Part shown: positions 10,330 through 52,652 of the stretch, piece by piece
Position numbering within the stretch: the first letter of the stretch is position 1
How the letters are laid out: each line of letters starts with the position of its first letter
Assembly (NCBI GenBank): GCA_046328335.1
Contig: JAXLWU010000005.1
Span: forward strand, 156,675-220,674
DNA: 64,000 nucleotides
Direction of reading: 5' to 3'
Source of the DNA: Thermomicrobiales bacterium
GTDB lineage: Bacteria; Chloroflexota; Chloroflexia; Thermomicrobiales; UBA6265
Translations under genes and position numbers: made by a program
Notes under the pieces: model-generated
What the model was told of the DNA's origin: nothing
The model's input: only the letters and a program-made list of their open reading frames with translations
The model's database searches: none

Positions 10330-10559
10330 CCCCTCACCCCACCCCCTCTCCCCGTGCGCGGGGCGAGGGGCTGTGTCGGGTCGTTGCGCGGTGGGCGTCG
10401 AGCGCCCCGCTTTTGGAGGGACAAGCGACGCTTGAGTGCGCCGCGCCGAAGCCGTGTCGTCCTGACGCAGGAGTGACCTCGGCCGTCGCACTGTCGGCAA
10501 CGACGCTCACAGCGGGAGCCCCTCGCCCCGCGCACGGGGAGAGGGGGTGGGGTGAGGGG
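10330..10559. repeat. MITE-like element 1 with about 42-nt terminal inverted repeats (family A)
   Basis: Left end CCCCTCACCCCACCCCCTCTCCCCGTGCGCGGGGCGAGGGGC (10330..10371). Right end is its inverted copy (10518..10559). The interior carries a family-B half unit (10454..10483). It lies between convergent gene ends. Confidence 0.7.
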
Positions 10560-17665: not shown

Positions 17666-17759
17666 TGGAAATGGGAAGAGTGCAATGCGTGCGGTGGCGC
17701 CGAGGTCACGGCATGCCGCTACCGTTGCGCCGGTGGTTTGGAGCGGGGTGCGAAACATT

Positions 17760-17845
17760 GTGTCGTTCCGAACCGCGGCGAGGAATCTCGTTTTCGGTCT
17801 CGATCGAAGTTAGCGTCGAGGTCCCTCCTGCGGTCGGGACGACAC
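17760..17845. repeat. Family B/C palindromic unit U1
   Basis: GTGTCGTTCCGAACCGCGGCGAGGAATCTCG ... CGAGGTCCCTCCTGCGGTCGGGACGACAC. The arms are imperfect inverted copies. Confidence 0.7.
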
Positions 17846-18026
17846 GACGTACGCACGGTGCTCTATTCACCGGCTACCGCCAGCCGAAAAGCCTCGTGAA
17901 CGGGACTTCACCGCGTGTGCATGCGGAAGGGCGCATCTGACACCACAGATTCGCGACCCGGAAACGGAGTCAGGAGAATCATCTCAGCCCCGTGCCCAGG
18001 GCTTGCGTGGGGCTAGCCGGACGTCT

Positions 18027-23732: not shown

Positions 23733-23762
23733 AGCCGCCGCTGACAGTGCCGCGCAAACGTC

Positions 23763-23846
23763 GTGTCGTTCCGAGCCGCGGCGAGGAATCTCGTCGTTGG
23801 TCAGGCGTCGGGCACACGCCGAGGTCCCTCCTCCGTCGGGACGACA
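23763..23846. repeat. Family B/C palindromic unit U2
   Basis: GTGTCGTTCCGAGCCGCGGCGAGGAATCTCG ... GCCGAGGTCCCTCCTCCGTCGGGACGACAC. Confidence 0.7.
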
Positions 23847-24099
23847 CGACATTCACACCTCGTGGTAATGGAACACCTCGCTCCCGCCGGGCCGGGGCGG
23901 GGCGAATAAGAGGAACGGATACTCCAACTTAATGAGGAAGCGAGCCCGGACGAACCGCGGCGTGGGGTGTCGGACCCCGCGCCGCGGTCTTCGTCTTGCG
24001 TGAAACGTTGCGTCTGCCGCGAGGGCAGATCACCGCGTCTTTCGTGATGATCGGGGTAGCATATCGGGCAGTCTGCCATCCGCTCGCAGGAGTTCCACG

Positions 24100-28974: not shown

Positions 28975-31563
28975 ATGGCACACCCTGGTCCATCTGACTC
29001 CAGACCGCCACATGAGGCCGCGGCCGGCGCTGGCCCGGTGGTATGGCTCACCGCTGGAGAGGCAGCGGTGGTTGCCAAGGTGCATGAGCGCACCATCCGC
29101 CGTGCGATCGCCCGTGGCGACCTGAAGGCGACGCGGGTGCGCGGCCGATTGCGCATTACTCGAGACAACTTGCATGACTACCAGCAGCGCCAACGCCAGG
29201 GCAGCACGGCTCCGCGGCGTCCAGCGCGTGCCCGCCGTCTGGCGACGCTTTCCTCCTTGCCAGTGCCACCCACGGCCATCATTGGCCGGGAGCGAGACGT
29301 TCGTTTGGCTACGGCGTTGCTCACCGGCCCGGATGGCCGCTTGCTGACTCTCACGGGCCCGGGCGGGGTGGGCAAGACCCGGTTGGCGCTGGCCGTGGCG
29401 GCGAATCTGGCATCATCATCTGGCGATGGCGTCGTCTTTGTGCCGCTCGAAGCGGTCCGTGATCCGGCGCAAGTCGCCGCTGCCATCGCGCAAACGCTGG
29501 GTATTGCGCCAGGCATTGGCATGGATCACCGGGCAACGCTGATCGAGGCCGTGCGGCATTACGAGCAACTCATCATTCTGGACAACTTCGAGCAGGTCCT
29601 GGGGGCGGCCGCCCTGGTGGCTGAACTCCTTTCGTTCGGGTCTGGGATCCGCATCCTGGTCACCAGCCGGGAGGCGCTGCGCATTCGGGGCGAAACGGAA
29701 ATCGTGGTCAATCCGCTTGCCGTGCCAGACCTCGCCGGACGTCTGACGGCCGAGGCCGTCGCTCGCGCACCGGCGATCGAACTGTTCGTTCGCTGCGCGC
29801 GAGCGGTGCAGCCCGACTTCACGCTCAACGACGACAACGCGGGCCTTCTCGGCGAAATCTGTCACCGTCTCGACGGCCTGCCCCTGGCGATCGAACTGGC
29901 CGCGAGTCAGATCAAGCATGCGTCGTTGCCGGAATTGCGATCACGCCTGACGCGGCGTCTGGATGCGCTCGCAGCTGGCTCCCGTGACCTGCCGGACCGG
30001 CTACGGACGATGCGCGCGGCGATCGGCTGGAGTTACGACCTGCTGGATGCCGACGAACAAGCCGTCTTTCGCCGCCTGTCCGTTTTCGCCGGTGGGTTCA
30101 CGCTGGAGGCGGCAGCGGCCATATGCGATCCGCTCGGTCAATCCGCGCGTTCCATCCAGGCCACCATCGATTCTCTCGTCAATAAGAGTCTTGTGCACAG
30201 AGTGGAAATCGAGAATGCCTCACGCTTTGCGATGCTCGATACGATCCGCGCCTTTGCCGGCGAACAACTTGTGTCCAATGACGAGGATGCCGAGTTCCAC
30301 CATCGGCACGCGGCGTACTTCCTGTCGCTCGCCGAGGCAGCGAGCAATGCGTTTCACGGTCCCGACGAGATTGCCACGCTTGCGCGCCTCGAGCGAGAGT
30401 TTGGCAACGTGCGTGCGGCGCTGGCGTGGAGTGCGAGCGCAGCGCAATCCCTTGGGATTGCGCTCCGGCTGGCTAACGCCATGGCCTGGCCCTGGTATGT
30501 GCGAGGGCACCAGCAGGAGGGATGGCGCTGGTTTGCCTTGCTCCTGGACCGCGCCGACGAGGAATTCGCGCCGCACGATCATGCCAGGGCCTTGATCTTC
30601 GCCAGTTGGCTCGCCGTGCGACTTGGTATGCCCGAGCGCGCGGAACAGCTTTGCGCCGACGCCCTGATGCAGACGGAGCACCTCGCCTTACGTCCGGAAA
30701 ATGCCTTCGCGGAGAGCACCGCGGGCTTTGTCCGGCTGTATGGATTCGGTGATCCGGCGACGGCGAAGCCGCATTTTCAGGCCGCGTTGCTGAAGGCAAG
30801 GTCCACTGGCGACGGTTGGGTCGAGGCCATGAGCGAGTACGGACTGAGCATCGTTGCCCTGGCGGACGGAGACCTGGCGCAGGCAACGGCGTTCGCGGAA
30901 CGCGGTCTCGCGCGATCGCGAGCGATGGGTGATGTGCAGGGCGCCGCGACGAATCTGGCCCAACTTGGCCGTCTCGCCCGGATTCGCGGCGATCTCCCCT
31001 CGGCGCTCCGTATCACCGCTGACGCTCTGGATCAGTACCTGTTCCTCGACGACCGCGGGAATGTCTGCTCCTGCATCGAATCGCTCGCCGGTCTGCTCGT
31101 TGCCATTGGCCGGTTGGAGCAGGGTACGATGCTGTTTGGCACGGCATCCGCGTTCCGGCAGCGCATTGGCACCCCGGTACCGGGTCACGAACAGACCCGA
31201 TATGAGGCAGATGTTGCCGTGGCCACCCAAGGGCTTGTCCAGGCGAGATTCCAGGACGCTTGGCTGCGGGGCGAAGCGATGGCGCTCCAGGAGACCCTTT
31301 CCGGGATTCCCTGGCGCACAATGTCCCCTTACTCGCGATGTGATGCGCCCCGGCCCGCGGGCGCGTCGTTGCTCCGCACCCTGACGCGACGCGAGCGCCA
31401 GATTCTGGAACTCATCGGCGCGGGACACACCGATCGGCAGATCGGGGATCTGCTCGCCATCAGCCCCGCCACCGTGACTAAACACGTCGGCAACGCGCTT
31501 GCCAAACTTGGCGCGCCCTCCCGTACCGCTGCGGCCGTGCTGCTGCTGACGACCACCATCTGA
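28975..31563 (+). CDS. STAND-type ATPase regulator: N-terminal excisionase/MerR-like HTH, NB-ARC P-loop, TPR-like region, C-terminal LuxR HTH
   Basis: WLTAGEAAVVAKVHERTIRRAIARGDLKATRV (HTH); LTLTGPGGVGKTRLALAVA (Walker A); LIILDNFEQV (Walker B); C-terminus LTRRERQILELIGAGHTDRQIGDLLAISPATVTKHVGNALAKLG (LuxR). Confidence 0.85.
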   Translation: MAHPGPSDSRPPHEAAAGAGPVVWLTAGEAAVVAKVHERTIRRAIARGDLKATRVRGRLRITRDNLHDYQQRQRQGSTAPRRPARARRLATLSSLPVPPTAIIGRERDVRLATALLTGPDGRLLTLTGPGGVGKTRLALAVAANLASSSGDGVVFVPLEAVRDPAQVAAAIAQTLGIAPGIGMDHRATLIEAVRHYEQLIILDNFEQVLGAAALVAELLSFGSGIRILVTSREALRIRGETEIVVNPLAVPDLAGRLTAEAVARAPAIELFVRCARAVQPDFTLNDDNAGLLGEICHRLDGLPLAIELAASQIKHASLPELRSRLTRRLDALAAGSRDLPDRLRTMRAAIGWSYDLLDADEQAVFRRLSVFAGGFTLEAAAAICDPLGQSARSIQATIDSLVNKSLVHRVEIENASRFAMLDTIRAFAGEQLVSNDEDAEFHHRHAAYFLSLAEAASNAFHGPDEIATLARLEREFGNVRAALAWSASAAQSLGIALRLANAMAWPWYVRGHQQEGWRWFALLLDRADEEFAPHDHARALIFASWLAVRLGMPERAEQLCADALMQTEHLALRPENAFAESTAGFVRLYGFGDPATAKPHFQAALLKARSTGDGWVEAMSEYGLSIVALADGDLAQATAFAERGLARSRAMGDVQGAATNLAQLGRLARIRGDLPSALRITADALDQYLFLDDRGNVCSCIESLAGLLVAIGRLEQGTMLFGTASAFRQRIGTPVPGHEQTRYEADVAVATQGLVQARFQDAWLRGEAMALQETLSGIPWRTMSPYSRCDAPRPAGASLLRTLTRRERQILELIGAGHTDRQIGDLLAISPATVTKHVGNALAKLGAPSRTAAAVLLLTTTI

Positions 31564-31712: not shown

Positions 31713-32067
31713 ATGGTTGGTCAGCCAATTGACTACACCGTGCGGCCCGGAGAATTGCGCCGCGATTTGCACCTCTCGCGGGAGCGCATGGCGCGCCTCG
31801 TGGACGTGAGCGCAAAGACGGTTGAACGCTGGGAACAACAGCAAGCGCCTCCTGCGCGGACGAGCGCGCGGATTCGGACGCAGCTGGCCCAAATTCAGTC
31901 CGTGCGCGATCTGGGGCTACGCGTTTACACCCCGGAGGGGTTCCAGGAGTTTCTCCGCACGCCATTGCCGGTCCTCGCCGGCCGCGCCCCTGCAGATGAT
32001 CGAACAGGGCGAGGTTGGCGCCGTGATCGCGGTGCTCGCCGCCGATTACGAGGGTCTTGGCTTCTAG
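31713..32067 (+). pseudogene. Xre/MbcA/ParS-type antitoxin (HTH plus DUF2384-like C-terminus) with a frameshift at a C-run
   Basis: Frame 1 gives MVGQPIDY...LSRERMARLVDVSAKTVERWEQ...FLRTPLPVLAGRAP. The expected continuation LQMIEQGEVGAVIAVLAADYEGLGF-stop is in ORF 31822..32067. The switch occurs at CCCC 31987..31990. Confidence 0.7.
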
Positions 32068-32604
32068 ATGACCCTCGCCGGGCACCTGCGTCGCTGGTCT
32101 GACGCCGCGCTGCGTCACATTCCGGCGGGATCCCCCTTTGATGTTCTCGACTTCCGCTTTGCCGGACTCTCGGCCGACAACCGTTGGCATGAACCCGGCG
32201 TTCCCACCCTCTATCTCGCGGGTGACGAAGGCGTCCTGATCGCCGAATGGGGCCGTCACTTTGCTACGAACCGCGCCGCGCACTTGCAGGCATTGACGGT
32301 CGAACGCAATATCTTCCGGTTGGCGTTGACGATCGACGCCGTGCTCGACCTGCGGCGGGAAGAGGTCTGCACCGCGATTGCTATCGAGAATGCTCCCTTC
32401 TGCTTTGCCGATATCGCCTTCGCCCGCGCCACCGCGCGGTTCATCCGCAGCACGACGCAAGATCAGCGGTTGCTCGTGCTATCGCTGGGGTTTATCGACG
32501 ATTTCGAACGGTGGGGCCTGGTCCTGTTCCTCGAAAAGCTCCCGCCCAATCCTGACGGGTTCATTTCCGCGGTGACGCCGTGTGGGCCGCTTCGCTGGGG
32601 CTGA
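32068..32604 (+). CDS. RES-domain toxin (MbcT/ParT-like)
   Basis: ATG directly follows the antitoxin TAG. Translation has ...FAGLSADNRWHEPGVPTLYLAGDEGVLIAEWGRH..., the RES-domain pattern with intact Arg, Glu and Ser positions as far as can be judged by eye. Confidence 0.8.
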   Translation: MTLAGHLRRWSDAALRHIPAGSPFDVLDFRFAGLSADNRWHEPGVPTLYLAGDEGVLIAEWGRHFATNRAAHLQALTVERNIFRLALTIDAVLDLRREEVCTAIAIENAPFCFADIAFARATARFIRSTTQDQRLLVLSLGFIDDFERWGLVLFLEKLPPNPDGFISAVTPCGPLRWG

Positions 32605-38063: not shown

Positions 38064-38387
38064 CCCCTCACCCTCACCCCTTGAGTGCCCCTCACCCCAA
38101 CCCCTCTCCCCGTGCGCGGGGCGAGGGACTGTTTCAGGTCGTCGAGCTGCCGGAGTGGAGCGTTATGCGCTCGAAAGACACGTCGCTTCCGAGTGCGCCA
38201 CGCAGCAGCGGTGTCGTCCCGACGCAGGAGGGACCTCGGCGGTCACGTTGACCACCACCACCGAGATTCTTCGCATCCGCGTGCCACGAACCCAGTGCTG
38301 CCTCGCACCCGCGGCAGCGTTGCTCCCTGCCGGAGCCCCTCTCCCCGCGCACGGGGAGAGGGGTTGGGGTGAGGGGCGCGTCGCGAG
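38064..38387. repeat. MITE-like element 3 (family A inverted ends)
   Basis: 38088..38127 is CCCCTCACCCCAACCCCTCTCCCCGTGCGCGGGGCGAGGG, and 38346..38387 is its inverted copy. The interior shares GTGTCGTCCCGACGCAGGAGGGACCTCGGC (38211..38240) with element 1. Confidence 0.7.
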
Positions 38388-41787: not shown

Positions 41788-42052
41788 CCCCTTCGATTCG
41801 CCGCGTCATCTTCAAGAGGCTCTCAAGGATGGGAGCGATGTGGCGCGGTCAGGCAGCGCAGTCGTCCGCGGGCGGGGGTACGGACCAGCGGCGAAGGGTA
41901 CCACTATCCCCGGCGGAAGGACCGTCGGTCGCAGCGGGCGATGATCACCGCAACGATACGGTGATGAGGCCTGAGGCCATGAGCGGGTGCGAGGGGTCGT
42001 CTCGCGTCGAGCGGCCGCGTGGCCGGGGGAGCCACCGCCACGAGCAGCAGCC

Positions 42053-42138
42053 GTGTCGTCCCGAGGAACGAGGGACCTCGTCGTGCGGCGCGGGGCAAGA
42101 CGGACGACGAGATTCCTCACGTTCGTTCGGAATGACAC
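42053..42138. repeat. Family B/C palindromic unit U3 (opposite orientation)
   Basis: GTGTCGTCCCGAGGAACGAGGGACCTCG ... CGAGATTCCTCACGTTCGTTCGGAATGACAC. Confidence 0.65.
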
Positions 42139-42250
42139 CAGTCTGGCGTGGCGTTTTCGATGGCCCTGCCTTCGGCGCGGGGCTCAGGTAACGCCATGTA
42201 ACCGCTCCCGGCGGTTCGCTCGCGAGACGACGTGGTCCTGCTGCCGGGGA

Positions 42251-43743: not shown

Positions 43744-45030
43744 GTGGTCGCGCGACGGGTGGAATTGAGCACGATGCGGTTGCCGGGCGGCCAGCGAATA
43801 TCGTGGCATCTTGGGCTGGGTCCCGAACTCGGCTACGTCTTCTGGGCGATGATCGGCGTCGAAGGGGCCTTCGGCGCCTATGTCGGCATCTGGCCGCTCT
43901 GGATCGAGGCGCTCGGCGCGCCGATCACGGTTGTCGGTCTGATCCTCGGCTCGTCAGGGCTGCTGCGGCTGCTGATGCTGGCGCCGAGCGCGGCGCTGGC
44001 GGACCGGATCGAACCGCGCACCCTCATCCTGGCCGCGCGCAGCGTGACCGGCGTCGGGCTGGTGACCGCGGCCCTGGCCACGCACTGGACCCAACTGGCG
44101 CCGATGGTGATCGGCACCGCCGTCGGCGAGATCGCCTTCCCCCTCACCCAGTCGTACCTGGCGACGCTGGCCGGCAAGGATCGGGTGCGGGCCTTCACCC
44201 TGGTCTTCAATGTCGGACCGGCGGTCTCCTTCGGGATTGCGCCGCTGATCTCCGGACTGCTGATCGCCCGCTTCGACATGCGGGCGGCGTTTCTCTTCGC
44301 CGCGCTCTGCACGCTGGCATCCCTGTTCTTCTTCAGCCGCTTTACGCCGCGCGCCAAGCGGGTGAAAGGGGAGACGGCGGTCCGGGCCTCCTACCGCGAT
44401 GCGGTTGTTGAACCGGGCGTAGCGCCGATGCTGGCGCTCCAGTTCGTCACCGTCTTCGCGCTGGCACTGGGGATTTCGCTGTTGCCGACCTTTCTCGCCG
44501 ATGTGCGCGGGATTTCGCCGGCGCTGGTCGCCATCCTCGGTGGTGTCGGTTCGACCGGCGCGGCGCTCTACGGACTGGTGATCGCGCGCAGCCGGCGGCT
44601 CCAGCGATACCCGCTGTTCGCCATCATCGTGGCGGTGGTGATGGTGATGGGGACCATGATCGTGGTGCTGGCGACGCCGATGATCTGGCTGATCGCGCTG
44701 GCGTTCGTCGGGCGCGGTGGACTGTGGTCGGCCTGGGGGCTCTACGCGGCGACGCTGAGCGAGGTGGTGCGGACCGATCGGGTGCGGTCGCGGGTCTTCG
44801 CGTTGAGCGAGATGATGGGCGGCAGCGCCTTTTCGACCGCGCCGATCGTCTCCGGGCAACTCTACGCGGTGCGGCCGGAGGGGCCGCTGCTCGCTTCCCT
44901 GGTCGCCAGCGCGGCGTTGATCCCGGTCCTCTACATCGCCCAGCGCCGGATCGGCTCCGGCCGGCCGCTGACGGAGGACGAGGAGGCCATCGCGCTCGCG
45001 GCGCCGCTGGCCGATCCCGAGGCGGCGTAG
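43744..45030 (+). CDS. MFS transporter
   Basis: 428 aa with about 12 hydrophobic segments and a DRIEPR-type loop after TM2 (LADRIEPRTLILAA). Confidence 0.8.
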   Translation: MVARRVELSTMRLPGGQRISWHLGLGPELGYVFWAMIGVEGAFGAYVGIWPLWIEALGAPITVVGLILGSSGLLRLLMLAPSAALADRIEPRTLILAARSVTGVGLVTAALATHWTQLAPMVIGTAVGEIAFPLTQSYLATLAGKDRVRAFTLVFNVGPAVSFGIAPLISGLLIARFDMRAAFLFAALCTLASLFFFSRFTPRAKRVKGETAVRASYRDAVVEPGVAPMLALQFVTVFALALGISLLPTFLADVRGISPALVAILGGVGSTGAALYGLVIARSRRLQRYPLFAIIVAVVMVMGTMIVVLATPMIWLIALAFVGRGGLWSAWGLYAATLSEVVRTDRVRSRVFALSEMMGGSAFSTAPIVSGQLYAVRPEGPLLASLVASAALIPVLYIAQRRIGSGRPLTEDEEAIALAAPLADPEAA

Positions 45031-45099
45031 GTTCGCGGGTCTGGACCTCGTTCATGCCCCGCCCGCGGCACCGGTGGTTTGGACCACCGTGCTCACGTC

Positions 45100-45186
45100 G
45101 TGTCGTCCCGACCGCAGGAGGGACCTCGGCGTTGGCAGTGAACGCAACCAACGAACGAGATACCTCGCGCTGGCTCGGCATGACAC
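45100..45186. repeat. Family B/C palindromic unit U4
   Basis: GTGTCGTCCCGACCGCAGGAGGGACCTCGGC ... CGAGATACCTCGCGCTGGCTCGGCATGACAC. Confidence 0.65.
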
Positions 45187-45467
45187 CATGGTTGCACGTC
45201 GCAGGAGCCATCGGCTGTAACGCGGGGAACCCTGGTGCACTGGGCTGGAATCGGTTGGGGCGAATAATCTGTTGCGAACATACGTTCTGCGCATTATGAT
45301 GCATTGTGGAGGATGACTCGCGAAGCGCGAGTCATTTTCACCGGTCTATCTCACCGCAACTGAAGTCGACGTGACTGGAGAAGGGATCGCCGATGATCTC
45401 CGCTCACTCCCGAAACGCCCAGGGGCAGCGTCATGATCTCCGCGCGCATTTGCACGCGGTCGCCGGC

Positions 45468-46427
45468 GTCGCGCCCGCTCTTCGGAGTGGGTGATGATTG
45501 AAACGATTCAACCCTGGGCACTCCCAAGATCCACGTCAGGTTCCTTTCTGCCTATGCGGCAGAGAAATCACATCGCGCACGCTCAGCGAGCGTGCGACAA
45601 TCCCCGCTCGGCAAATCCCAAGCCGAGGGAAACCATGAACAGCAACGGACTGATCGCGACGGGCTACTTGGTCGCGTGCCTGCTCATCACGCCATTGATT
45701 GTTTCGGCACAGCAATCCACCGCGGTAGAACGTCTTCCCCAAGCCGGGGACCTGCCGGCAGGGTGGGTGGTCTCCAGCGCGGAGCAGACCGCGCCCTCCG
45801 ATGTCACGGCTATCAATGATCTGGCAGAGGCGGTGTACCTCGGCCCCAACGGGAGCCGCGCGTGGGTTCTGTTGGCGCAAGTCAACGCGGGCCCGGCTGC
45901 GGCGCGTACGTCGTGGGAACTGATGGGCAACTCGTTCGACAACCTCCGTGGCACGTTTGACGCGGACTACAACAGCGAGCGAGAACTGCGCGAGATGCCG
46001 ATGCCAAAGGTCGCGGGCTGCGCGGACATGCGCCGGATGCGCGGGACGGACAACGTCATCGACAGTATCGACGTTGGGGTGTCGTTGTGCGCGGCTGACC
46101 CCGACAGCCTCATCCTGGCGTACGTTTCCGGTGCCTTCGGCGACCTGTCGGGGCCGAGGGCATCTGACGCGCTCATCGGTCTTGTGCTGAGCGACGCGCC
46201 GGGCGCCACGCCAGAGGCCGGCTAGCGTTCGCAAGCGATGCCGGGTGCCGCTTACCCGCGCTTCTAGCCGTTGTCCGACCCCGCCTCGCCCCAATCGAGC
46301 GATTCCAGCACGTCGCACCCGCTCTTCGGAGTGGGTGGGGATTGAAACATCATCCGGGGTGGCATCGTGACCAGCAGGTTGCGGGTTGCACTCACTCCTC
46401 GGGCTGGAGAGAAGTTGATCTCGAAAC
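45468..46427 (+). CRISPR. Degenerate orphan CRISPR-like array: R1, 807-nt insert, R2, 36-nt spacer, degenerate R3
   Basis: R1 45468..45504 is GTCGCGCCCGCTCTTCGGAGTGGGTGATGATTGAAAC. R2 46312..46348 is GTCGCACCCGCTCTTCGGAGTGGGTGGGGATTGAAAC (34/37 identical). R3 46385..46427 is GTTGCACTCACTCCTCGGGCTGGAGAGAAGTTGATCTCGAAAC. The stem is CCCGCTC/GAGTGGG with a TTCG loop, and the GTCGC...ATTGAAAC ends resemble type I-C-style repeats. No cas genes are in the window. Confidence 0.5.
45635..46225 (+). CDS. Secreted hypothetical protein encoded between CRISPR-like repeats R1 and R2
   Basis: ATG follows GAGGGA. Signal peptide MNSNGLIATGYLVACLLITPLIVSAQQ. 196 aa with two Cys and no recognised family. Confidence 0.6.
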   Translation: MNSNGLIATGYLVACLLITPLIVSAQQSTAVERLPQAGDLPAGWVVSSAEQTAPSDVTAINDLAEAVYLGPNGSRAWVLLAQVNAGPAAARTSWELMGNSFDNLRGTFDADYNSERELREMPMPKVAGCADMRRMRGTDNVIDSIDVGVSLCAADPDSLILAYVSGAFGDLSGPRASDALIGLVLSDAPGATPEAG

Positions 46428-46470
46428 AGCAGACGGCAGGTAATGCGTGCCGCCGCTTCCGGCTGTGGCG

Positions 46471-46740
46471 TTAGCGCAACTCGAGATGAAGTGACCGGCC
46501 GACCGCGGCCGCCGCGCGCTGCATTGTTTCGAGTTGCACCGTGTCGTGCGTGGGGTCGAGCAGGCGATCGCGTTGCGTGCGGCTGGTGTGCATTCGTCGC
46601 GCCATCGCGCGTTTCGATAGCCCCTGGGCGGTCATTTCCTGTTGCATCTGCCAGGCCAAAACCCGCTTGATCGCGTGCGTGGTCGCCTCGTCGCGAATCC
46701 CCTCTTCGGCGACTGAAGAGCCCTGATAGCAGTTGGCCAT
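46471..46740 (-). CDS. XRE-family HTH antitoxin-like protein (no cognate toxin seen)
   Basis: MANCYQGSS...AIKRVLAWQMQQEMTAQGLSKRAMARRMHTSRTQRDRLLDPTHDTVQLETMQRAAAAVGRSLHLELR is a typical HigA/XRE antidote layout. Confidence 0.7.
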   Translation of the reverse strand: MANCYQGSSVAEEGIRDEATTHAIKRVLAWQMQQEMTAQGLSKRAMARRMHTSRTQRDRLLDPTHDTVQLETMQRAAAAVGRSLHLELR

Positions 46741-46832
46741 CGGCCGAGAACTCCTCCGCGTGGATTCGGATTCGTGCAGGAAAGCGGGAATACAATACTG
46801 AGTGTTAGTGTGCAGGTGGTCATGAGCAGGCA

Positions 46833-47063
46833 ATGCCGCCCAAGATTCGTCAGTTGAAATCGGATCTTCGGAAGGCAGGTTTCGTCCTCTCGCTCAACCG
46901 AGGCAAAGAAAGCCATACCGTATGGGTTCATCCTTGCACAGGAACATCGGTAACGGTATCGGGCGGCGACGGTGACGATGCGAAGCGGTATCAGGAGTCG
47001 GATGTTCGCAACGCAATCGTACACGCGGTCGAGTCGCTCCGCGCCAAGGACGTCAATGCATGA
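46833..47063 (+). CDS. hicA: HicA-family mRNA interferase toxin
   Basis: MPPKIRQLKSDLRKAGFVLSLNRGKESHTVWVHP... is a YcfA/HicA pattern. Confidence 0.85.
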   Translation: MPPKIRQLKSDLRKAGFVLSLNRGKESHTVWVHPCTGTSVTVSGGDGDDAKRYQESDVRNAIVHAVESLRAKDVNA

Positions 47064-47551
47064 GCCGATCACCAGACTATCCCGATGTGACGGAAGCGGA
47101 ACTCGCGGCGGCGCATCGCTACAGTATGGCCATTGACTGGTCGCCCGACGACGAGGCATTCATCGCCAGTTTCCCGGATGTCCCGTTCGTCCGTGTTCAT
47201 GGCCGCACTCGGGAAGAAGCAGTGGAGCGCGGCGAGGAACTGATCGTTGCCTGGTTGACCGCGCTGCACGATGCGGGATACCCCGTCACGCCGCCAGACA
47301 GGACCGCGCGGACGAGAGCCTTCGAGTCGCCGCCCTATGACGCGGCGGCCGTCCGCCGGATTCGCCGCACCCTGGATGTGTCGCAGCAGGTTTTCGCTTC
47401 GTTGCTCAATGTGAAGGTCACCACCGTGCGGTCGTGGGAACAGGGCCAGCGTAGGCCAGACGGCGCGTCAACGCGGCTGCTCGACCTGGCGGAGCATCAT
47501 CCGGAGATATTGCTGGCATTGAGCAGGCCGCGCGAAGGACGGATCGCCTGA
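47060..47551 (+). CDS. hicB: HicB-family antitoxin with C-terminal XRE HTH
   Basis: ATGA overlap with hicA. HicB fold: YSMAIDWSPDDEAFIASFPDVPFVRVHGRTREEAVERGEELIVAWL. HTH: IRRIRRTLDVSQQVFASLLNVKVTTVRSWEQGQRRP. Confidence 0.85.
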   Translation: MSRSPDYPDVTEAELAAAHRYSMAIDWSPDDEAFIASFPDVPFVRVHGRTREEAVERGEELIVAWLTALHDAGYPVTPPDRTARTRAFESPPYDAAAVRRIRRTLDVSQQVFASLLNVKVTTVRSWEQGQRRPDGASTRLLDLAEHHPEILLALSRPREGRIA

Positions 47552-47606: not shown

Positions 47607-48481
47607 TCACTCACCGAGCACCGCGAGGTGCAGTTGACCCAGGCGTTTCGGGTCGGCGATGGCCTCGATGCGGGCGATCTTGCCGTGCGCGATGGTGAAG
47701 GCGAGCACCATCATCATCCGTCCGCGCGGCGCCACGATCACCCCGACCGCGCCATCGATCAGCGCTGGTTGCGCCTCCCGCGCCCCGCCCCGCGCCGTGC
47801 GCGTGGCCACCGCTTCCGCGCCGCGGATATCGTGCGGGGCATCGAGCCGTCCGGCGGGATAGGTCCTCAGCACCACATCGGGATCGAGAATGGCGAGCAG
47901 CGCGGCGAAATCGCCGGCCCGCGCCGCGGCGAGAAAGGCGTCCACCAGGCGCCGCTGCTGGGACCGCGCCACCGCATGCGTGGGGTCGGTGCCCCGCACG
48001 CGACGCCGCGCCCGGCTCGCCAACTGCCGGGTCGCTGCCGGTGAGCGCTGGACGATCGGCGCGATGTCAGCGAAGGGCACCGCGAACAGATCGTGCAGGA
48101 CGAAGGCGATCCGCTCGGCCGGGGTGAGCGTCTCGAGGACGACCAGCATCGCCAGTCCCACCGCTTCCGCCAGCAGCGCTTCCTGCTCGGGATCGCCGCC
48201 ATCCGTGTCGCCCCTGACGGATGCGGCCGCCACGGTCCCCAGCGATTCTTCGCGGCGCGCCTTGCGCACCTCGCGTTGCCGAGCCCGAGACAGACCCGGG
48301 CCACCACCGTAGTCAGCCGCTCAGGTTCTCCACCGCGCTCACGTCCGTCCGGCTCAGGCGCAGCCAGGTTTCCTGCACCGCATCGCTGTCCGGCCTCGCT
48401 CAGCGAGCCAAGCATGCGATAGGCCACGCCGCGCAGGTGTTCCTGGTTCGCCGAACCGCCACGCCACGCTCGTTCCGTCAT
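47607..48481 (-). pseudogene. ECF sigma factor (SigJ-like with SnoaL-like C-terminus), at least 3 frameshifts
   Basis: N-terminus MTERAW...HLRGVAYRMLGSLSEA. The expected DSDAVQETWLRLSRTDVSAVENLSG is in another frame. Reading returns to LTTVVARVCL, then switches to RKARREESLG...LTPAERIAFVLHDLFAVPFADIAPIVQRSPAATRQLASRARRRV. Breaks lie near 48391, 48316 and 48270..48290. Confidence 0.8.
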
Positions 48482-48630
48482 CGGTCACAATCCTCATCGC
48501 GATTCGTCATGGTAGTGACGCATCCGCCGCGCTGGATGTGACGGACATCCGGCGAGAAGATCGGGGCCACGGCGCGGCGGTGGTGGGAGGGTTGCATCTC
48601 GGTCGTGGCCGCAATCGAGAAAGGCTCGAG

Positions 48631-49090
48631 ATGATGACACTGCCCGCCCGCTCCTTGAGGAGCGCACGCGAGATACCCGCACGCTGGAGCAGCATGATGT
48701 CGATGCCTGGGTGGCCACCGCCGACGCCGGCAAGGGGGCTCCCTACCTGATCCCGCTCTCGTTTTCCTGGGACGGCCAAACCCTGCTCTTCGCGACGCCA
48801 CGTAACAGCGTGACTGGCCGCAACATCCGCGAGACCGGAAAGGTCCTGGTCTCGGTCTCGGCGCCACCCGCGACGTCGTTCTGATCGAAGGCACTGCGCA
48901 GCTGCTCTCGGTGACGTATTTGCTTGGCCCGGAGGATGTGTTCGCCGCGCGGACTGGGTTCGATCCGCGCCAACTTCTCCCAACCGTACCTCTACTTCCG
49001 GGTCGCGCCGCGGCGCATCCAGGCCTGGCAAGAGGAAACGAACTGACCGGCCATGGCTTCATGCGCGATTACCGCTGGCTGGTGGACTGA
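48631..49090 (+). pseudogene. Pyridoxamine 5'-phosphate oxidase (PPOX)-family protein, about 4 frameshifts
   Basis: The pieces LLEERTRDTRTLEQHDVDAWVATADAGKGAPYLIPLSFSWDGQTLLFATPRNSVTGRNIRETGKV, TRDVVLIEGTAQLL, SQPYLYFRVAPRRIQAWQEE and NELTGHGFMRDYRWLVD lie in different frames. One break is at AAA 49036..49038. Confidence 0.7.
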
Positions 49091-50213
49091 TCGCGGTTCC
49101 GCGCGGATCGGTCAGGACGACAAGGCGAAAACCGTAGTCGATTGAAGACCTCGCCGGGGGCGCAGCACGGTGGTGGGGAAATCCGGGTGGTGCGGCGAGT
49201 TTGGAAGTGCTGCGTCTCCAGGGCGATGCCATCGCCCTGGCGATAGGCCTCGCCCGCTGGAGCCGGCGAACGACCCGTCGAGGAAATTGCCGGTGACCCG
49301 GCACGCCCGGCTCGGTCGTCGAGACCGTCAGGGTGCACCGCTGCTGGGGTGATGGAGCCGACGCCCTCGATCAGCGAGGTCTCCGCTTCGCGGTCGAAGA
49401 CGAAATTGTGGTCGTATCCTCTGCTCATCAATAGTTGCGGATTCGTTCCGACGGATGCGGGCGCCGATCGCCATTGGCGTGGTGAAGTCGAACGGCGTCC
49501 CGCCATCGCCGGCCAGGTCCTCGGTCGGAATCCGGCGCCCGGCATCGACCGGGGTGTAGCGGCCGGCGGCGAGCCAGAGGACGTGATCTTCGATGCTGCC
49601 GATCCCTCCCCGCCAGATTCCAGTAGGCGTGATTGGTCAGGTTGAGAATCGGGTTTGCCGGTCGGTTTCGGCGCGGTAGTCGATCGCGAGCCTGTTCTCC
49701 TCGTCGAGGCGATAGGTCACCGACGTGCGCAACGCGCCGGGATACCCTTCTCGCCGTCCGGGCTGGTCCGGGTGAGTGGACGCCAGCGGAGTCACTGTCG
49801 TGGACCTCGTCCGCGTCCCACACGAATTTGTCGAAGCCGCGCAAAACCGCCGTGCAGGTGGTTGTCGCCGACGTTGCGGGCCATACAGGTTTCGCCATCG
49901 AGGGTGAAGCGGCCACCGGCGAGGCGTTGGCGTACCGCCCGGTGATGCAGCCGAAGAAGGGCGAATTGTTGCGGCGATAGCCGGCGAGATCGCCAAAGCC
50001 GAGGGCGACGTTCGCCAGGGTGCCAGCGCGGTCCGGCGCCCACACCGCCCGGATGACGCCGCCGTAGGTGAGGATTTCCACGCGCAAACCGTAGCGGTTC
50101 GACAGGTGATAGTTGGTGACCGGTTGCCCATCGAATGCGCCAAACGGTTCGCGCCCGATCTCGACCACGGTGCTTCTTCCTCTTCCTCGAAAGCGCCTTC
50201 GCATGGACCCCAT
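49059..50213 (-). pseudogene. galM: Aldose 1-epimerase (galactose mutarotase), many frameshifts
   Basis: Fragments are scattered over three frames: FGAFDGQPVTNYHLSNRYGLRVEILTYGGVIRAVWAPDRAG, GGRFTLDGET, NHLHGG, GFDKFVWDA, EGYPGALRTSVTYRLDEENRLAIDYRAETDR, NLTNHAYWNLAG and GYDHNFVFD. Confidence 0.75.
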
Positions 50214-50229
50214 TGTCCCACCGAGCCGG

Positions 50230-50718
50230 CAATCCCTCGACCGGTGTGCCCACGCCGAAGTCCGTTGGCCGCCAGCCAGCCGGCGGGAACTTCCAGAGCG
50301 TAGGCGGACAGCCGGTGAGAAATAGTGCGCCAGGTCAGCGTCGGCGGTGCCCGCCGGTTCCGGGCAGAGCCTGCTCGGCGGCGCCCTGAATGGCGCCGTT
50401 CAATCCAGATGATATCGAGGCAGAAGCGCATGTTCTTCATCCAGAACGAGAGGGGTTGCGGCCGATCGAAGACGAAGAGCATGCCAGCGCCAGGCGCCAA
50501 CCCATCCCGCTCACCCAGCCCCGCGCCCTGCTGGCGGGATCGGCGGCGATCTCCACCGTCAGCGGCACGCCACCGACCAGGATCTTGTCCACCGGCAACT
50601 CGCTCTCCTGCCGCGCGTTGACAGGTCCCGTCCTCACGGTCATGCCGCCCAGCATCGCGAGCGCGAGCGCCGTCACCAGCACGCCGAAGGTCATGCCCCG
50701 CGTCCTTTCCATCGCCAA
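50230..50718 (-). pseudogene. DUF192-family protein, frameshifted
   Basis: Signal/TM MTFGVLVTALALAMLGGM and VGGVPLTVEIAADPASRARG are in one frame. GMLFVFDRPQPLSFWMKNMRFCLDIIWI...YALEVPAGWLAANGL is in another. The 3' boundary is approximate. Confidence 0.65.
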
Positions 50719-50822
50719 CGCCCCAGCCGATTACGCCAGCAGGTCCTCGCCAGCCAGCCGCGCGGCCAGCGCCAGCAACGCCGCCGCGCAGGCAGGAAAC
50801 GCCGTTGAGAGTCAGATCGGTT

Positions 50823-51573
50823 TCATCGATTGGCTTCGCGGGCGTTTCCGTTGCCGAGCACGCCCACCCGCAGCGTCGCTACGCCATGGGCGCGCATCTC
50901 GCGCAGGGCGCGGAAGGCATCGACGTCCGTCACATCGTCGCCGAAGAAGACGACGCTGCGCAATCCGAGATCGTGGACCAGATCGCGGATGGCGCTGCCC
51001 TTGTTGACGGCGAGATTCCTACGCAGTTCGAAGATCATCCGCCCGGAGGTGACGCGCAGACCGTGCCGGGCGGCGGTCTCTCGCACGAACGGTTTGCAAC
51101 GCCTGCGCCGCGAGTGGATCGTCCGCCAGGCGATAGTGAATGGTCCCGGCGATGCCCTTGTCCTCGATCGAGCCAGGCGGGATTGCCGAACGCCTGCGCC
51201 GCGGTGGCGATCTCGGCCAGCGCGGCGGCGATGGCCGGTTGCGCTCGCGGCGGCCACCGGGTGGGTCCACGCTTCGCCGCGGACGATCCGTTCCAGGCCG
51301 TGATTGCCGACGTAAATCAGTTCGGGCAGTTCGACCATCGCCGCGCCAGCGGCGGAGCGCGCCCGGAGACTGGCGACGGCCGCCAGACGCGCCGCCAGCC
51401 GTTGCAGCGCCGCCCGCGCGCCGGGATCGACCATTGCCTCCGCGGGCGTCGGGGCGATCGGGTTGATGGTGCCATCGATGTCGGTGACCACCGCCGAGGG
51501 TGTCTGGCCGCAGCACTTCCAGGCAGGCGGTGACGACCGCGTCGATGTCGGGAGTGGCTGCCCGTTTCGACAT
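50823..51573 (-). pseudogene. otsB: Trehalose-phosphatase (HAD-IIB), frameshifted
   Basis: MSKRAATPDIDAVVTACLEVLRPDTLG, VVTDIDGTINPIAPTPAEAMVDPGARAALQRLA...LIYVGNHGLE, IEDKGIAGTIHYRLADDP and FVRETAARHGLRVTSGRMIFELRRNLAVNKGSAIRDLV...VVFFGDDVTDVDAF are spread over at least 3 frames. Confidence 0.7.
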
Positions 51574-51752
51574 CGTCACGTTCACCCTCGTCCTGATAGG
51601 AATAGATACCAGGCCGCGCCGCTGATGAACAAATCCTGCACGCCATCCTGACTGGCAATAGCGAGGTGATAGACGAGTCCCTGGGCACATTGGGCGGGCC
51701 GAACGGATCGCAGCGAGGCGTTCAGGCGGCACGGTCGCTCCCGTGGATGGGT

Positions 51753-52296
51753 TCAGTTCGGCATCGTCGTTGTAACCGGCACGCGCCAGGCCCGGTGCAG
51801 TTCCTGGAAGTTGACCTGATCCAGCGGGAGTACCGGTACCGCGGCGGGATCGATCTCGGCTGGTTCGCTCAGACCGGTATCGCTGTAGAAGAACGACTGC
51901 GCCGACTGGCAACATCCTCGCCAGCGGAACGCGGGTTCCAGCGCGCAGCCGACTGCATGGTGACCAGTCGCGCATCGGGCCGCCAGGCAAGGGCCGTTTC
52001 GATGGAGGATGCTCGCACGCCGCCGGCCCATTCGTCGCCGACGGCGGTGATCGCCTCACGCGCAACGGCCATCGTTGCAGCGCTGTGGCTCCGGCAAGCC
52101 GGGCAATGCCGCGGCGCTGGCCGGTGTCGGGGTGGGATCGGCGGCGGCGATGCGCGGGGGAGGGTACTCGAACCCTGGAGCAACCGGTCAGCGGCAACAC
52201 CGCGAGCGCCCCGGCCAGAACCAGCAACCGAGCGGAGCGGCGGTCTCGATCGATTGGCGAGCGGACGGTCACCAGGGGCATTCCTCGGCGGGGCAC
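51753..52296 (-). pseudogene. Probable lipoprotein gene in fragments (function unknown)
   Basis: A lipobox-like ARLLVLAGALAVLPLTGCS is in one frame. Plausible protein-like stretches (ATMAVAREAITAVGDEWAGG...; SFFYSDTGLSEPAEIDPAAVPVLPLDQVNFQELH) are in others. This is a weak call. Confidence 0.3.
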
Positions 52297-52453
52297 CGCT
52301 GGAATCTACCACGCCGTCCGGCATCTGGCGCATCGTCACCTGGATGTGGCGGACGGAACCATCGACGGTGGCAAGCACGGACGCTCAATTGTGATACCTC
52401 AGCCAGGAATGTGCGGACAAAGGGCCACCGGAAACGCCTGGGAGAAGGGGAAA

Positions 52454-52483
52454 GCCGAGGTCCCTCCTCCGTCGGGACGACAC
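52454..52483. repeat. Family B half unit U5
   Basis: GCCGAGGTCCCTCCTCCGTCGGGACGACAC, identical to the right arm of U2. Confidence 0.6.
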
Positions 52484-52652
52484 GCGTGCCGTTTGGTGCT
52501 CCCGGCGGAGGCGGTGGCCGCGGCACGATCTCGCTCGCGTGCGAATGGGAGTGGTGGTAGCAGAAACCCCGCGTCCGGCATGCCGGACGCGGGGTCGTGA
52601 GTGTCACGTCATCGGGTGCGCGGTGCGTCACCCACCGTGGAATGTCAGGCGC

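What the first reader, a model, noticed from the sequence alone, without database searches (positions are those of the whole stretch)
45468..46427. CRISPR-like repeats bracket a complete secreted-protein gene instead of a spacer
Two 37-nt repeats are 34/37 identical. They have GTCGC...ATTGAAAC ends and a CCCGCTC-TTCG-GAGTGGG stem-loop like type I-C-style repeats.

They are separated by 807 nt rather than a spacer-sized interval. That interval holds an intact ORF in the same orientation, with a good RBS and a signal peptide (45635..46225).

R2 is followed by a normal 36-nt spacer and a degenerate third repeat, the usual look of an array's trailer end. No cas gene is in the window.

Possible explanations:
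- a decaying orphan array that suffered an insertion or recombination;
- a gene captured between repeats and co-transcribed from the leader side (45300..45467, AT-richer, with an 11-nt direct repeat ATGATCTCCGC at 45393 and 45433), so that repeat processing by a Cas6/Cas5d-type nuclease would excise an mRNA;
- repeat-like elements co-opted for regulation, as in CreTA-type modules.
Basis: partly seen in the sequence, partly recalled or inferred. Interest (0 to 1): 0.7.

Follow-up and report, generated by a model that had tools for sequence, protein, structure and literature searches.

The report
Orphan CRISPR mini-array enclosing a gene
A three-repeat remnant of a type I-C CRISPR array in a Thermomicrobiales genome keeps one real phage-derived spacer, but its first spacer slot is filled by a complete gene for a secreted protein, an odd and probably accidental arrangement seen only in this lineage.

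Summary
R1 (45468-45504) and R2 (46312-46348) are 34/37 identical and full-length. They match Rfam CRISPR-DR9 and are about 30/37 identical to the repeat of a Pseudomonadota MAG array lying directly downstream of cas3-cas5d-csd1-cas7-cas4-cas1-cas2 (type I-C). R3 (46385-46427) is a real degenerate terminal repeat.

The 36-nt spacer between R2 and R3 is a genuine phage spacer. It matches the Walker-A region of a viral large-terminase gene, and the mismatches are synonymous.

The 807-nt segment between R1 and R2 holds an intact, conserved gene: 196 aa, signal peptide, two invariant Cys, PknH-sensor-like fold. Its homologues elsewhere are never flanked by repeats.

Five orthologous loci in relatives lose synteny exactly at the upstream MFS stop codon and carry no repeats. 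Two other public contigs (ENA, Logan) show the same structure, so it is not a misassembly. The window has no cas genes and no target for a regulatory crRNA-like guide.

Best reading: an orphan or isolated, decaying I-C array in which gene-sized DNA came to occupy the leader-proximal spacer slot. Functional coupling (co-transcription, Cas5c processing) is possible but untested. It is a curiosity of moderate interest.

The parts
45198..45467 (+). Putative leader of the mini-array. It contains the only sigma-70-like promoter match in 44900-47100 (TTGCGA-17-TATGAT, 45272-45300), a perfect 10-bp hairpin followed by TTTC (45313-45339), and an 11-nt direct repeat ATGATCTCCGC at 45393 and 45433.
   Evidence: Similarity to the leader of the cas-adjacent MAG272 array is weak (a CACGCGG motif just upstream of the first repeat). 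Leader status is inferred, not shown.
45468..45504 (+). R1, a full-length 37-nt type I-C-family CRISPR repeat (GTCGCGCCCGCTCTTCGGAGTGGGTGATGATTGAAAC).
   Evidence: Rfam CRISPR-DR9: 34.5 bits, E=1e-5. Own covariance model: 57.1 bits, though R1 was part of its seed.
45505..45634 (+). First 130 nt of the 807-nt segment, which is the 5' UTR of the enclosed gene. It is strongly structured, with three hairpins. One of them (45576-45597, CGCACGCTC-AGC-GAGCGTGCG) weakly resembles the repeat stem.
   Evidence: Fold z-score -4.2. The covariance-model hit is marginal (9-10 bits, E~2-3), though it is the best unrelated hit in the window. No viral match to either end of its first 36 nt.
45635..46225 (+). 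Intact gene for a 196-aa secreted protein (NCBI MFN8591211.1, U0031_07065). It has a signal peptide, two invariant Cys, and GP.GSR, GCADMRR and LCAADPD motifs. The predicted fold resembles the PknH extracellular sensor domain.
   Evidence: pLDDT 87, pTM 0.80; 4esq, 4tmd, 7cu8: prob 0.97-0.99, TM 0.44-0.49, but Foldseek E only 0.01-0.08 and none at E<=0.001. No Pfam or PHROG family.
46226..46311 (+). 3' flank of the gene up to R2. It has no notable structure and no intrinsic terminator.
   Evidence: z = -0.6; no viral match to its last 23 nt.
46312..46348 (+). R2, a full-length repeat differing from R1 at positions 6, 27 and 28. The position-6 change keeps the stem pair (G-U in R1, A-U in R2, G-C in the relatives).
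   Evidence: Rfam CRISPR-DR9: 39.2 bits, E=5e-7.
46349..46384 (+). Genuine 36-nt spacer derived from a phage large-terminase (TerL) gene, in the Walker-A region.
   Evidence: 24 contiguous nt and 29/36 overall match IMGVR_UViG_3300028388_003945 (L020 9441-9476, minus strand), inside an ORF scoring E=2e-102 to PHROG 38, terminase large subunit. In frame the spacer encodes RNLLVTMPPRM against the phage's RNLLVTMPPRF, and three of the differing codons are synonymous third-position changes. The peptide fits the family consensus in 120 homologues.
46385..46427 (+). R3, the degenerate terminal repeat (GTTGCACTCACTCCTCGGGCTGGAGAGAAGTTGATCTCGAAAC). The hairpin is lost and the 3' handle is reduced to CTCGAAAC.

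Best explanation
This is a small type I-C CRISPR array with no cas genes nearby. It is orphan or isolated; which one cannot be told from the window. Three repeats remain.

The distal unit (R2, 36-nt spacer, degenerate R3) is an ordinary old immunity unit whose spacer was taken from a phage terminase gene.

The leader-proximal spacer slot is occupied by an 807-bp segment carrying a complete, independently conserved gene for a secreted, PknH-sensor-like protein. The segment most likely arrived through a DNA rearrangement at the repeats. Candidates are recombination with repeat-bearing DNA, illegitimate insertion into a spacer, or less likely aberrant Cas1-Cas2 integration. It probably then persisted because the gene is useful and the array is no longer turning over.

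The gene is read in the same direction as the array. It is therefore probably transcribed from the leader-side promoter through R1 (inferred), with the two repeat hairpins sitting passively in its 5' and 3' untranslated regions.

Shown: repeat family, spacer origin, gene reality, lineage-specificity, absence of cas from the window. Inferred: the mode of origin, the transcription pattern, and the lack of a CRISPR-dependent function.
For: Repeat family:
- A 23-base core pattern hit only three stretches in 596 Gb of genomes. All carry CRISPR-type repeat copies. Two belong to one 24-copy array with ~71-nt period, directly downstream of cas3-cas5d-csd1-cas7-cas4-cas1-cas2 on the same strand. The third is a two-repeat mini-array.
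- Rfam CRISPR-DR9 matches both repeats over their full length.

Trailer and spacer:
- R3 is statistically real and correctly spaced.
- The spacer matches a viral TerL gene with codon-aware, synonymous divergence.

The gene:
- Homologues at 33-59% identity exist, with a confident fold model.
- No homologue locus with DNA available has flanking repeats: L006, L007-L010, L016-L018.

Lineage-specificity:
- Five orthologous MFS loci in relatives (74-80% nt identity) stop aligning exactly at the MFS stop codon (45030). They lack both the repeats and the gene.

Assembly:
- An ENA contig and a Logan contig are 100% identical across R1-gene-R2-spacer-R3.
- R1 and R2 share only 20 contiguous bases, too few to collapse an assembly graph.

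No cas or other defence genes occur in the 64 kb.
Against: - Both repeats are still perfect hairpins with an intact ATTGAAAC handle. Their three differences fall at a pair-preserving or family-variable position. This could reflect continued selection for Cas5c recognition rather than recent origin.
- The gene is complete, correctly oriented and fits the spacer slot exactly at the repeat borders. That is somewhat unlikely for a random insertion (my rough estimate is ~10%).
- Only 64 kb of a 255-kb contig, and none of the rest of the MAG, could be examined. A cognate I-C system may exist, in which case the array would be isolated rather than orphan and the transcript would be processed.
- The mode of origin is not resolved by any data here.
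Confidence: 0.6

Rival explanations
1. Functional capture. The array serves as an expression platform: the leader promoter drives one transcript, and a type I-C Cas5c encoded elsewhere in the genome cuts at the base of the R1 and R2 hairpins. This releases an mRNA with an 11-nt 5' handle and a protective 3' hairpin, alongside the anti-terminase crRNA.
For: - Same strand and orientation as arrays of this family next to cas genes.
- The only promoter-like site in 44900-47100 lies upstream of R1, and no terminator lies between R1 and R3.
- Both repeats keep the stem and 3' handle.
- Precedent for a type I-C repeat co-transcribed with a protein gene: acrIC5-racrIC1 (PMC10651486).
Against: - The arrangement is unique to this lineage. 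No homologue of the gene and no orthologous locus shows repeats.
- No cas genes in the window.
- The repeat core was absent from JGI metagenomes and IMG/VR, and among 185,579 species representatives it was found only in Pseudomonadota MAG contigs, none titled Thermomicrobiales.
- The promoter scan is only a consensus match.
Confidence: 0.12
2. Origin by aberrant adaptation. The I-C Cas1-Cas2(-Cas4) integrase inserted an ~0.8-kb DNA fragment at the leader-proximal repeat as a giant spacer and duplicated the repeat. This concerns origin only and is compatible with either functional reading.
For: - The segment sits in the leader-proximal (newest) slot.
- Homology between R1 and R2 ends at the repeat borders (apart from one extra shared 5' base), with no partial repeats, as expected from repeat duplication.
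- The array did acquire at least one genuine spacer.
Against: - To my knowledge no in vivo precedent exists for spacers of this size.
- R1 and R2 have since diverged at 3 of 37 positions.
- A complete, correctly oriented gene would be a coincidence.
- The PAM of the source DNA cannot be checked because the source is unknown.
Confidence: 0.08
3. Remnant of a mobile element that integrated into the array at a repeat, as known for prophages and Tn7-like transposons, and later decayed to a single moron-like gene.
For: - Prophages that integrate into CRISPR repeats end up flanked by repeat sequence (10.1101/2020.10.09.333658).
- Tn7-like elements target CRISPR repeats (PMC11837452; title and abstract only).
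- A 39%-identical homologue sits on the opposite strand inside a phage tail module.
- Toxin-antitoxin and HTH genes follow the array.
Against: - The segment has one ORF and no integrase, transposase or phage gene.
- Both flanking repeats are full-length rather than partial attL/attR hybrids.
- No family member was found in IMG/VR.
Confidence: 0.12
4. Regulatory or decoy RNA. Either R2-spacer-R3 is a crRNA-like regulator (CreA/crlRNA) repressing a promoter, or R1 is a solitary repeat that titrates Cas proteins (Racr).
For: - The repeat, spacer, degenerate-repeat architecture resembles crlRNA genes.
- R1 lies within 250 bp of a promoter-like site, one criterion used for Racr candidates.
- A two-repeat mini-array of the same family exists in another MAG contig (L001; its cas content was not examined).
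Against: - No TTC-flanked partial target for any guide is above the shuffled-guide background, locally or in the window.
- The spacer matches a phage terminase like a normal immunity spacer.
- The locus is not inside a cas operon, and no phage genes, integrase or transposase were recognised in the window.
Confidence: 0.04
5. Assembly artefact that joined unrelated DNA at CRISPR repeats.
For: The source is a MAG, and low-coverage contigs break within the leader.
Against: - An ENA contig and a Logan contig are base-for-base identical to the window across the whole structure.
- R1 and R2 share only 20 identical contiguous bases.
Confidence: 0.02

Closest known systems
Orphan or isolated CRISPR arrays (arrays away from cas genes; Shmakov et al. 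2020, as summarised in PMC13142298)
   Same: Short array with a genuine foreign spacer, a degenerate terminal repeat, a leader-like upstream region and no cas genes nearby. It lies in a variable region of the chromosome.
   Different: One spacer position holds an 807-bp segment with a complete, conserved, non-mobile protein gene. I found no description of this in the papers searched.
Type I-C arrays of the Rfam CRISPR-DR9 repeat family, e.g. the cas-adjacent array of Pseudomonadota MAG272 (JBFMFN010000020.1)
   Same: 37-nt repeat, 9-bp stem, 4-nt loop, GATTGAAAC 3' end, same orientation, 34-36-nt spacers.
   Different: Here only three repeats remain, in a different phylum (Thermomicrobiales), with no cas operon within 64 kb. 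The Rfam score is just below the gathering threshold (34.5 and 39.2 bits against 45).
Mobile elements integrated into CRISPR repeats: Streptococcus pyogenes phage PhiAP1.1 (10.1101/2020.10.09.333658) and Tn7-like transposons that target CRISPR repeats (PMC11837452)
   Same: Foreign DNA bracketed by CRISPR repeat sequence inside an array.
   Different: No integrase, transposase or phage genes are present. The insert is under 1 kb, and both flanking repeats are complete units rather than partial ones.
acrIC5-racrIC1 bicistron (PMC10651486) and type I-C crlRNA/CRISIS regulators (10.1101/2024.12.27.630466)
   Same: A type I-C repeat-like element close to, and probably on the same transcript as, a protein-coding gene.
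   Different: Those elements lie in prophages or inside cas operons. They act as Cas decoys or promoter-targeting guides. Here the protein is secreted, no target site exists in the window, and the spacer is a normal phage spacer.

Membership tests
Type I-C CRISPR array (CRISPR-DR9 repeat family) | Repeat of characteristic length, stem-loop and conserved 3' ATTGAAAC handle, related to repeats next to I-C cas operons | tested here: met
   About 30/37 identity to the MAG272 repeat, which lies downstream of cas3-cas5d-csd1-cas7-cas4-cas1-cas2. Rfam DR9 E=1e-5 and 5e-7 over the full length, but below the gathering score. The hairpin is confirmed.
Type I-C CRISPR array (CRISPR-DR9 repeat family) | Repeats regularly interspaced by spacer-sized (about 34-37 nt) unique sequences | tested here: inconclusive
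   Met for R2, 36 nt, R3. Not met for R1, 807 nt, R2.
Type I-C CRISPR array (CRISPR-DR9 repeat family) | Spacers derived from foreign (phage or plasmid) DNA | tested here: met
   The spacer matches a viral TerL gene at 29/36, with 24 contiguous nt, synonymous differences and 10 of 11 encoded residues identical. At the homologous PAM position the phage reads TTG. Its third base is a codon third position, one change away from TTC.
Type I-C CRISPR array (CRISPR-DR9 repeat family) | Associated cas genes (cas3, cas5c, cas8c, cas7, cas4, cas1, cas2) | tested here: not met
   None in the 64-kb window. The rest of the genome could not be searched, so orphan versus isolated remains undecided.
crRNA-like regulatory RNA (CreA of CreTA; crlRNA/CRISIS) | Spacer-like sequence with about 11-16 bp complementarity plus PAM to the promoter of a neighbouring gene | tested here: not met
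   The best TTC-flanked matches for the three guides tested are within the shuffled-guide distribution, and none lies near the locus.
crRNA-like regulatory RNA (CreA of CreTA; crlRNA/CRISIS) | Location within or beside a cas operon | tested here: not met
   No cas genes in the window. Definition taken.
RNA anti-CRISPR (Racr) / viral solitary repeat unit | Encoded on a virus, prophage or plasmid, often beside acr genes | tested here: not met
   The window is ordinary chromosome (release factor, 2-oxoacid dehydrogenase, MTHFR, ABC transporters). The repeat is absent from IMG/VR. The neighbour is a secreted protein, not an Acr-like one.
RNA anti-CRISPR (Racr) / viral solitary repeat unit | Promoter within about 250 bp upstream of the repeat | tested here: inconclusive
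   A consensus-type promoter match lies 168 nt upstream of R1. This is a pattern match only.
Mobile element integrated into a CRISPR repeat | Insert carries recombinase or transposase or phage genes, and junctions are hybrid or partial repeats | tested here: not met
   The insert has a single ORF with no Pfam or PHROG hit. Both repeats are full-length.

The most novel reading that the evidence does not exclude
The CRISPR machinery itself captured a gene. A type I-C Cas1-Cas2 integrase inserted an ~0.8-kb gene-bearing fragment at the leader-proximal repeat as a giant spacer. The array now works like an integron-style expression cassette whose transcript is cut out by Cas5c at the flanking repeats.
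Probability: 0.06. Interest if true: 0.85.

Novelty: new variant of a known kind. Interest (0 to 1): 0.4.

Why it matters
If the arrangement is only a relic, it is a well-documented example of how orphan arrays decay and how array repeats can act as recombination or insertion sites for ordinary genes. That is useful as a caution for CRISPR-finding software, which would miss this array or call only two repeats.

If it were functional, it would show CRISPR repeats and a Cas5c-type nuclease being used to express or process an mRNA, or adaptation enzymes integrating gene-sized DNA. Either would extend what CRISPR loci are known to do. The data here do not support that stronger reading, but they do not exclude it.

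Tried and rejected
- **Exact and loose repeat patterns in JGI metagenomes and IMG/VR.** No hits. The source genome's other arrays, if any, could not be found this way.
- **CreTA/crlRNA target search.** I looked for contiguous seeds of at least 9 nt and for TTC-PAM 18-nt matches ignoring every sixth base, using the sequences after R1, R2 and R3 (and the last 36 nt before R2 in the seed search). Only background was found.
- **Extra degenerate repeats inside the 807-nt segment.** The covariance model gives only a marginal hit at the 45576-45597 hairpin. Rfam gives a meaningless DR4 hit at 45541-45567. Neither is accepted as a repeat.
- **Island delimitation.** Synteny with relatives ends at 45030 but does not resume anywhere in the window, so no insertion boundaries could be defined.
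- **Apparent synteny of homologue P0003 with an MFS gene.** That MFS is not identifiable among the 120 listed homologues (of 165) of the window's MFS, and its upstream neighbour differs.
- **Defence-like PADLOC hits.** The mad3, mad8 and AriA hits fall on an ABC-transporter ATPase, and the CARF hit falls on the LuxR HTH of a STAND regulator. These are generic domain similarities.
- **Viral origin of the protein family.** No relatives in IMG/VR and no PHROG.
- **Viral matches to the two ends of the 807-nt segment.** None.

Full report
**Observation**

- R1 (45468-45504) and R2 (46312-46348) are direct repeats of 37 nt with three mismatches. They are the only two copies in the window, with zero matches in 100 shuffles.
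- The similarity ends at the repeat borders, apart from one extra shared base on the 5' side.
- Each repeat folds into a 9-bp stem with a UUCG loop followed by an unpaired ...GATTGAAAC tail.
- The 807 nt between them contain one intact ORF on the same strand (45635-46225, 196 aa) with a GAGGGA ribosome-binding site. The longer ORF in the same frame (45491-46225) has coding-like GC3 of 0.77.
- A third, degenerate copy begins exactly 36 nt after R2. Its first 23 nt match at 17/23, a level reached on the + strand of the window only by R1, R2 and this site. Its gapped alignment score is in the top ~0.1% of windows. It has lost the hairpin, so the covariance model does not see it.

**Is it a CRISPR repeat?**

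Yes.
- A 23-base core pattern searched in 185,579 species-representative genomes hit three stretches. All carry CRISPR-type repeats.
- Two of them are parts of one array of at least 24 copies with ~71-nt period in a Pseudomonadota MAG. Its repeat, GTTGCGCCCGCTCTCTCGAGTGGGCGAGGATTGAAAC, has the same length and is about 30/37 identical to R1.
- That array lies directly downstream of, and on the same strand as, cas3, cas5d, csd1 (cas8c), cas7, cas4, cas1 and cas2, a complete type I-C operon.
- The third stretch is a two-repeat mini-array in a gammaproteobacterial MAG.
- Independently, Rfam's CRISPR-DR9 model aligns to R1 and R2 over all 37 positions (34.5 and 39.2 bits; E = 1e-5 and 5e-7). That is just under the curated threshold of 45, which explains why the gathering-threshold scan found nothing.
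- Across the five family members every stem position pairs. The R1/R2 difference at position 6 keeps the pair: G-C in relatives, G-U in R1, A-U in R2.

**The normal spacer is real**

- The 3' 22 nt of the 36-nt spacer between R2 and R3 match a viral contig (IMGVR_UViG_3300028388_003945) exactly. The match extends to 24 contiguous and 29/36 bases.
- Because both sequences are GC-rich, chance was not excluded by length alone.
- The site lies in the large-terminase gene of a bona fide phage contig, with the terminase at E = 2e-102 and a portal next to it.
- In the terminase reading frame the spacer encodes RNLLVTMPPRM against the phage's RNLLVTMPPRF. Three of the differing codons (CCC/CCA, CCG/CCC, CGC/CGG) are synonymous third-position changes.
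- The peptide fits the Walker-A consensus xxNLL[VI]TMPPR[HFM]AKST of 120 homologous terminases, several of which have PPRM.
- The spacer was therefore acquired from a relative of that phage.
- The homologous PAM position reads TTG. Its third base is a codon third position, so a synonymous change would give the type I-C PAM TTC. This last point is inference.
- The terminase family is found mostly on 55-60-kb contigs, some carrying Tara identifiers. The only organism name is an alphaproteobacterium. Together with the proteobacterial nearest repeats, this hints at horizontal origin of the array, but the evidence is thin.

**The enclosed gene is real and unrelated to CRISPR**

- The protein is NCBI MFN8591211.1, annotated as a hypothetical protein of a Thermomicrobiales MAG on a 255-kb contig.
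- Ten homologues at 33-59% identity share a signal peptide ending in A-Q, two invariant cysteines and several motifs.
- It has no Pfam or PHROG family.
- An AlphaFold model is confident (pLDDT 87, pTM 0.80). Its best PDB matches are the extracellular sensor domain of PknH and the related mycobacterial proteins Rv0999-like and TiME (probability 0.97-0.99, TM 0.44-0.49). The Foldseek E-values are only 0.01-0.08, and no match reaches E <= 0.001. The protein is probably a secreted ligand-binding or sensor-type protein, but that assignment is weak.
- None of the homologue loci whose DNA could be read has CRISPR-like repeats. These comprise a 55-57% relative between unrelated genes, a 39% relative on the opposite strand inside a phage tail module, and two others.

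**Context**

- The window is ordinary chromosome with no cas or other defence genes, no tRNA and no recognised recombinase near the locus.
- Upstream lies an MFS transporter gene. Five orthologous loci from relatives align at 74-80% nucleotide identity through the upstream genes and the MFS gene, and all stop aligning at its stop codon, 45029/45030. Their downstream genes are not in the window, and the window's downstream genes are not in their flanks.
- The array-plus-gene block therefore sits at a lineage-specific breakpoint. A copy of a seven-member dispersed intergenic element lies between the MFS stop and the leader.
- Downstream are a small HTH gene, a HicAB pair and a sigma-factor-like gene.

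**Not an assembly artefact**

- An ENA contig (L004) and a Logan contig (L005) are 100% identical to the window across R1, the gene, R2, the spacer and R3. Another ENA contig abuts from the MFS side.
- R1 and R2 share only 20 contiguous identical bases, too few to merge paths in an assembly graph.

**Functional hypotheses tested**

- *CreA/crlRNA.* Such a guide should match 11-16 bp of a nearby promoter next to a TTC PAM (definition). Neither the spacer nor the sequences following R1 or R3 have such a target above the shuffled-guide background, locally or anywhere in the window.
- *Racr-type decoy.* This would be expected on a phage or plasmid, beside acr genes. The context here does not fit, and the repeat is absent from IMG/VR.
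- *Mobile element integrated into a repeat.* Such an element would bring recombinase or phage genes and leave partial repeats. The insert has neither.
- *Co-transcription.* The only sigma-70-like site in 2.2 kb is 168 nt upstream of R1 on the right strand, and no terminator intervenes. Co-transcription of R1, the gene, R2 and the spacer is therefore plausible, but it rests on a consensus match.

**Conclusion**

The best-supported reading is a decaying orphan or isolated type I-C array whose leader-proximal spacer slot came to hold a gene-sized piece of DNA. How it got there is unresolved. Possible routes are recombination at the repeats, insertion into a spacer, or aberrant integrase activity.

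The lack of conservation argues that the repeat-gene-repeat arrangement is an accident rather than a selected device. Two features keep a functional link possible:
- Both flanking repeats remain fully processable.
- The gene fits the slot exactly and in the sense orientation.

The decisive facts could not be obtained here. They are whether the genome encodes Cas5c and the other I-C proteins, and where the transcript ends lie.

Noticed in passing
window 45082-45197 (+), 17748-17863 (-), 23751-23850 (-), 42052-42140 (+), 38211-38264 (+), 10453-10501 (+), 52451-52488 (-): A dispersed intergenic element of about 100-115 nt with a nearly invariant core CGTGTCGTCCCGACGCAGGAGGGACCTCGGCG, present in seven copies in 64 kb. 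It has no Rfam family at the gathering threshold. One copy sits at the synteny breakpoint just after the MFS stop codon.
   Followed up: partly
window ~10521 (+), 15524 (+), 10360 (-), 38118 (-): A second short palindromic REP-like element, CCCCTCGCCCCGCGCACGGGGAGAGGGG, seen as a by-product of the seed search.
   Followed up: no
L004 1211-3196 versus window 46520 onward: An ENA contig (coverage about 3x) is identical to the window from 45311 to 46520. It then diverges inside the 3' end of the HTH gene into a different HTH_17 gene followed by transketolase genes. This is either a chimeric low-coverage contig or a strain with a different right-hand junction about 90 nt past R3.
   Followed up: partly
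L001 4856-4963 (Gammaproteobacteria MAG JBOIDL010000248.1): A two-repeat mini-array of the same repeat family: an intact repeat, a 34-nt spacer, then a repeat with a diverged 3' end (24.5 bits). It lies near a contig end, downstream of a 712-aa ORF that contains 126-nt tandem repeats. It could be a crRNA-like regulator or another orphan.
   Followed up: no
window 48300-52600: A stretch with fragmented, overlapping ORFs. Two Aldose_epim Pfam hits appear among the 56 scanned ORFs, and the ORFs at 49428-50213 and 49637-50500 look like the two pieces. Other short ORFs at 50437-51491 were not individually assigned. These may be pseudogenes or frameshift errors in the MAG.
   Followed up: no
window 28975-31563 (+) and 31822-32604 (+): An 862-aa STAND-type regulator (HTH_17, NB-ARC/AAA, TPR, LuxR HTH) is followed by an 81-aa ORF and a RES-domain gene, possibly a toxin-antitoxin pair. 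With HicAB at 46833-47551, the region carries at least one, possibly two, toxin-antitoxin modules.
   Followed up: no
L020 9148-11940 (IMGVR_UViG_3300028388_003945): The targeted phage's large terminase is 930 aa, against about 540 aa in most homologues. It carries precomputed intein-type Pfam domains (PF13403; the two other long homologues also carry PF14890) after the Walker-A region, so it probably contains an intein.
   Followed up: no
L007-L010 (JGI contigs of about 60 kb): A 39%-identical homologue of the secreted protein sits alone on the opposite strand between a large NHL-repeat protein and Gp80-like genes, near a tape-measure gene. This placement is moron-like.
   Followed up: no
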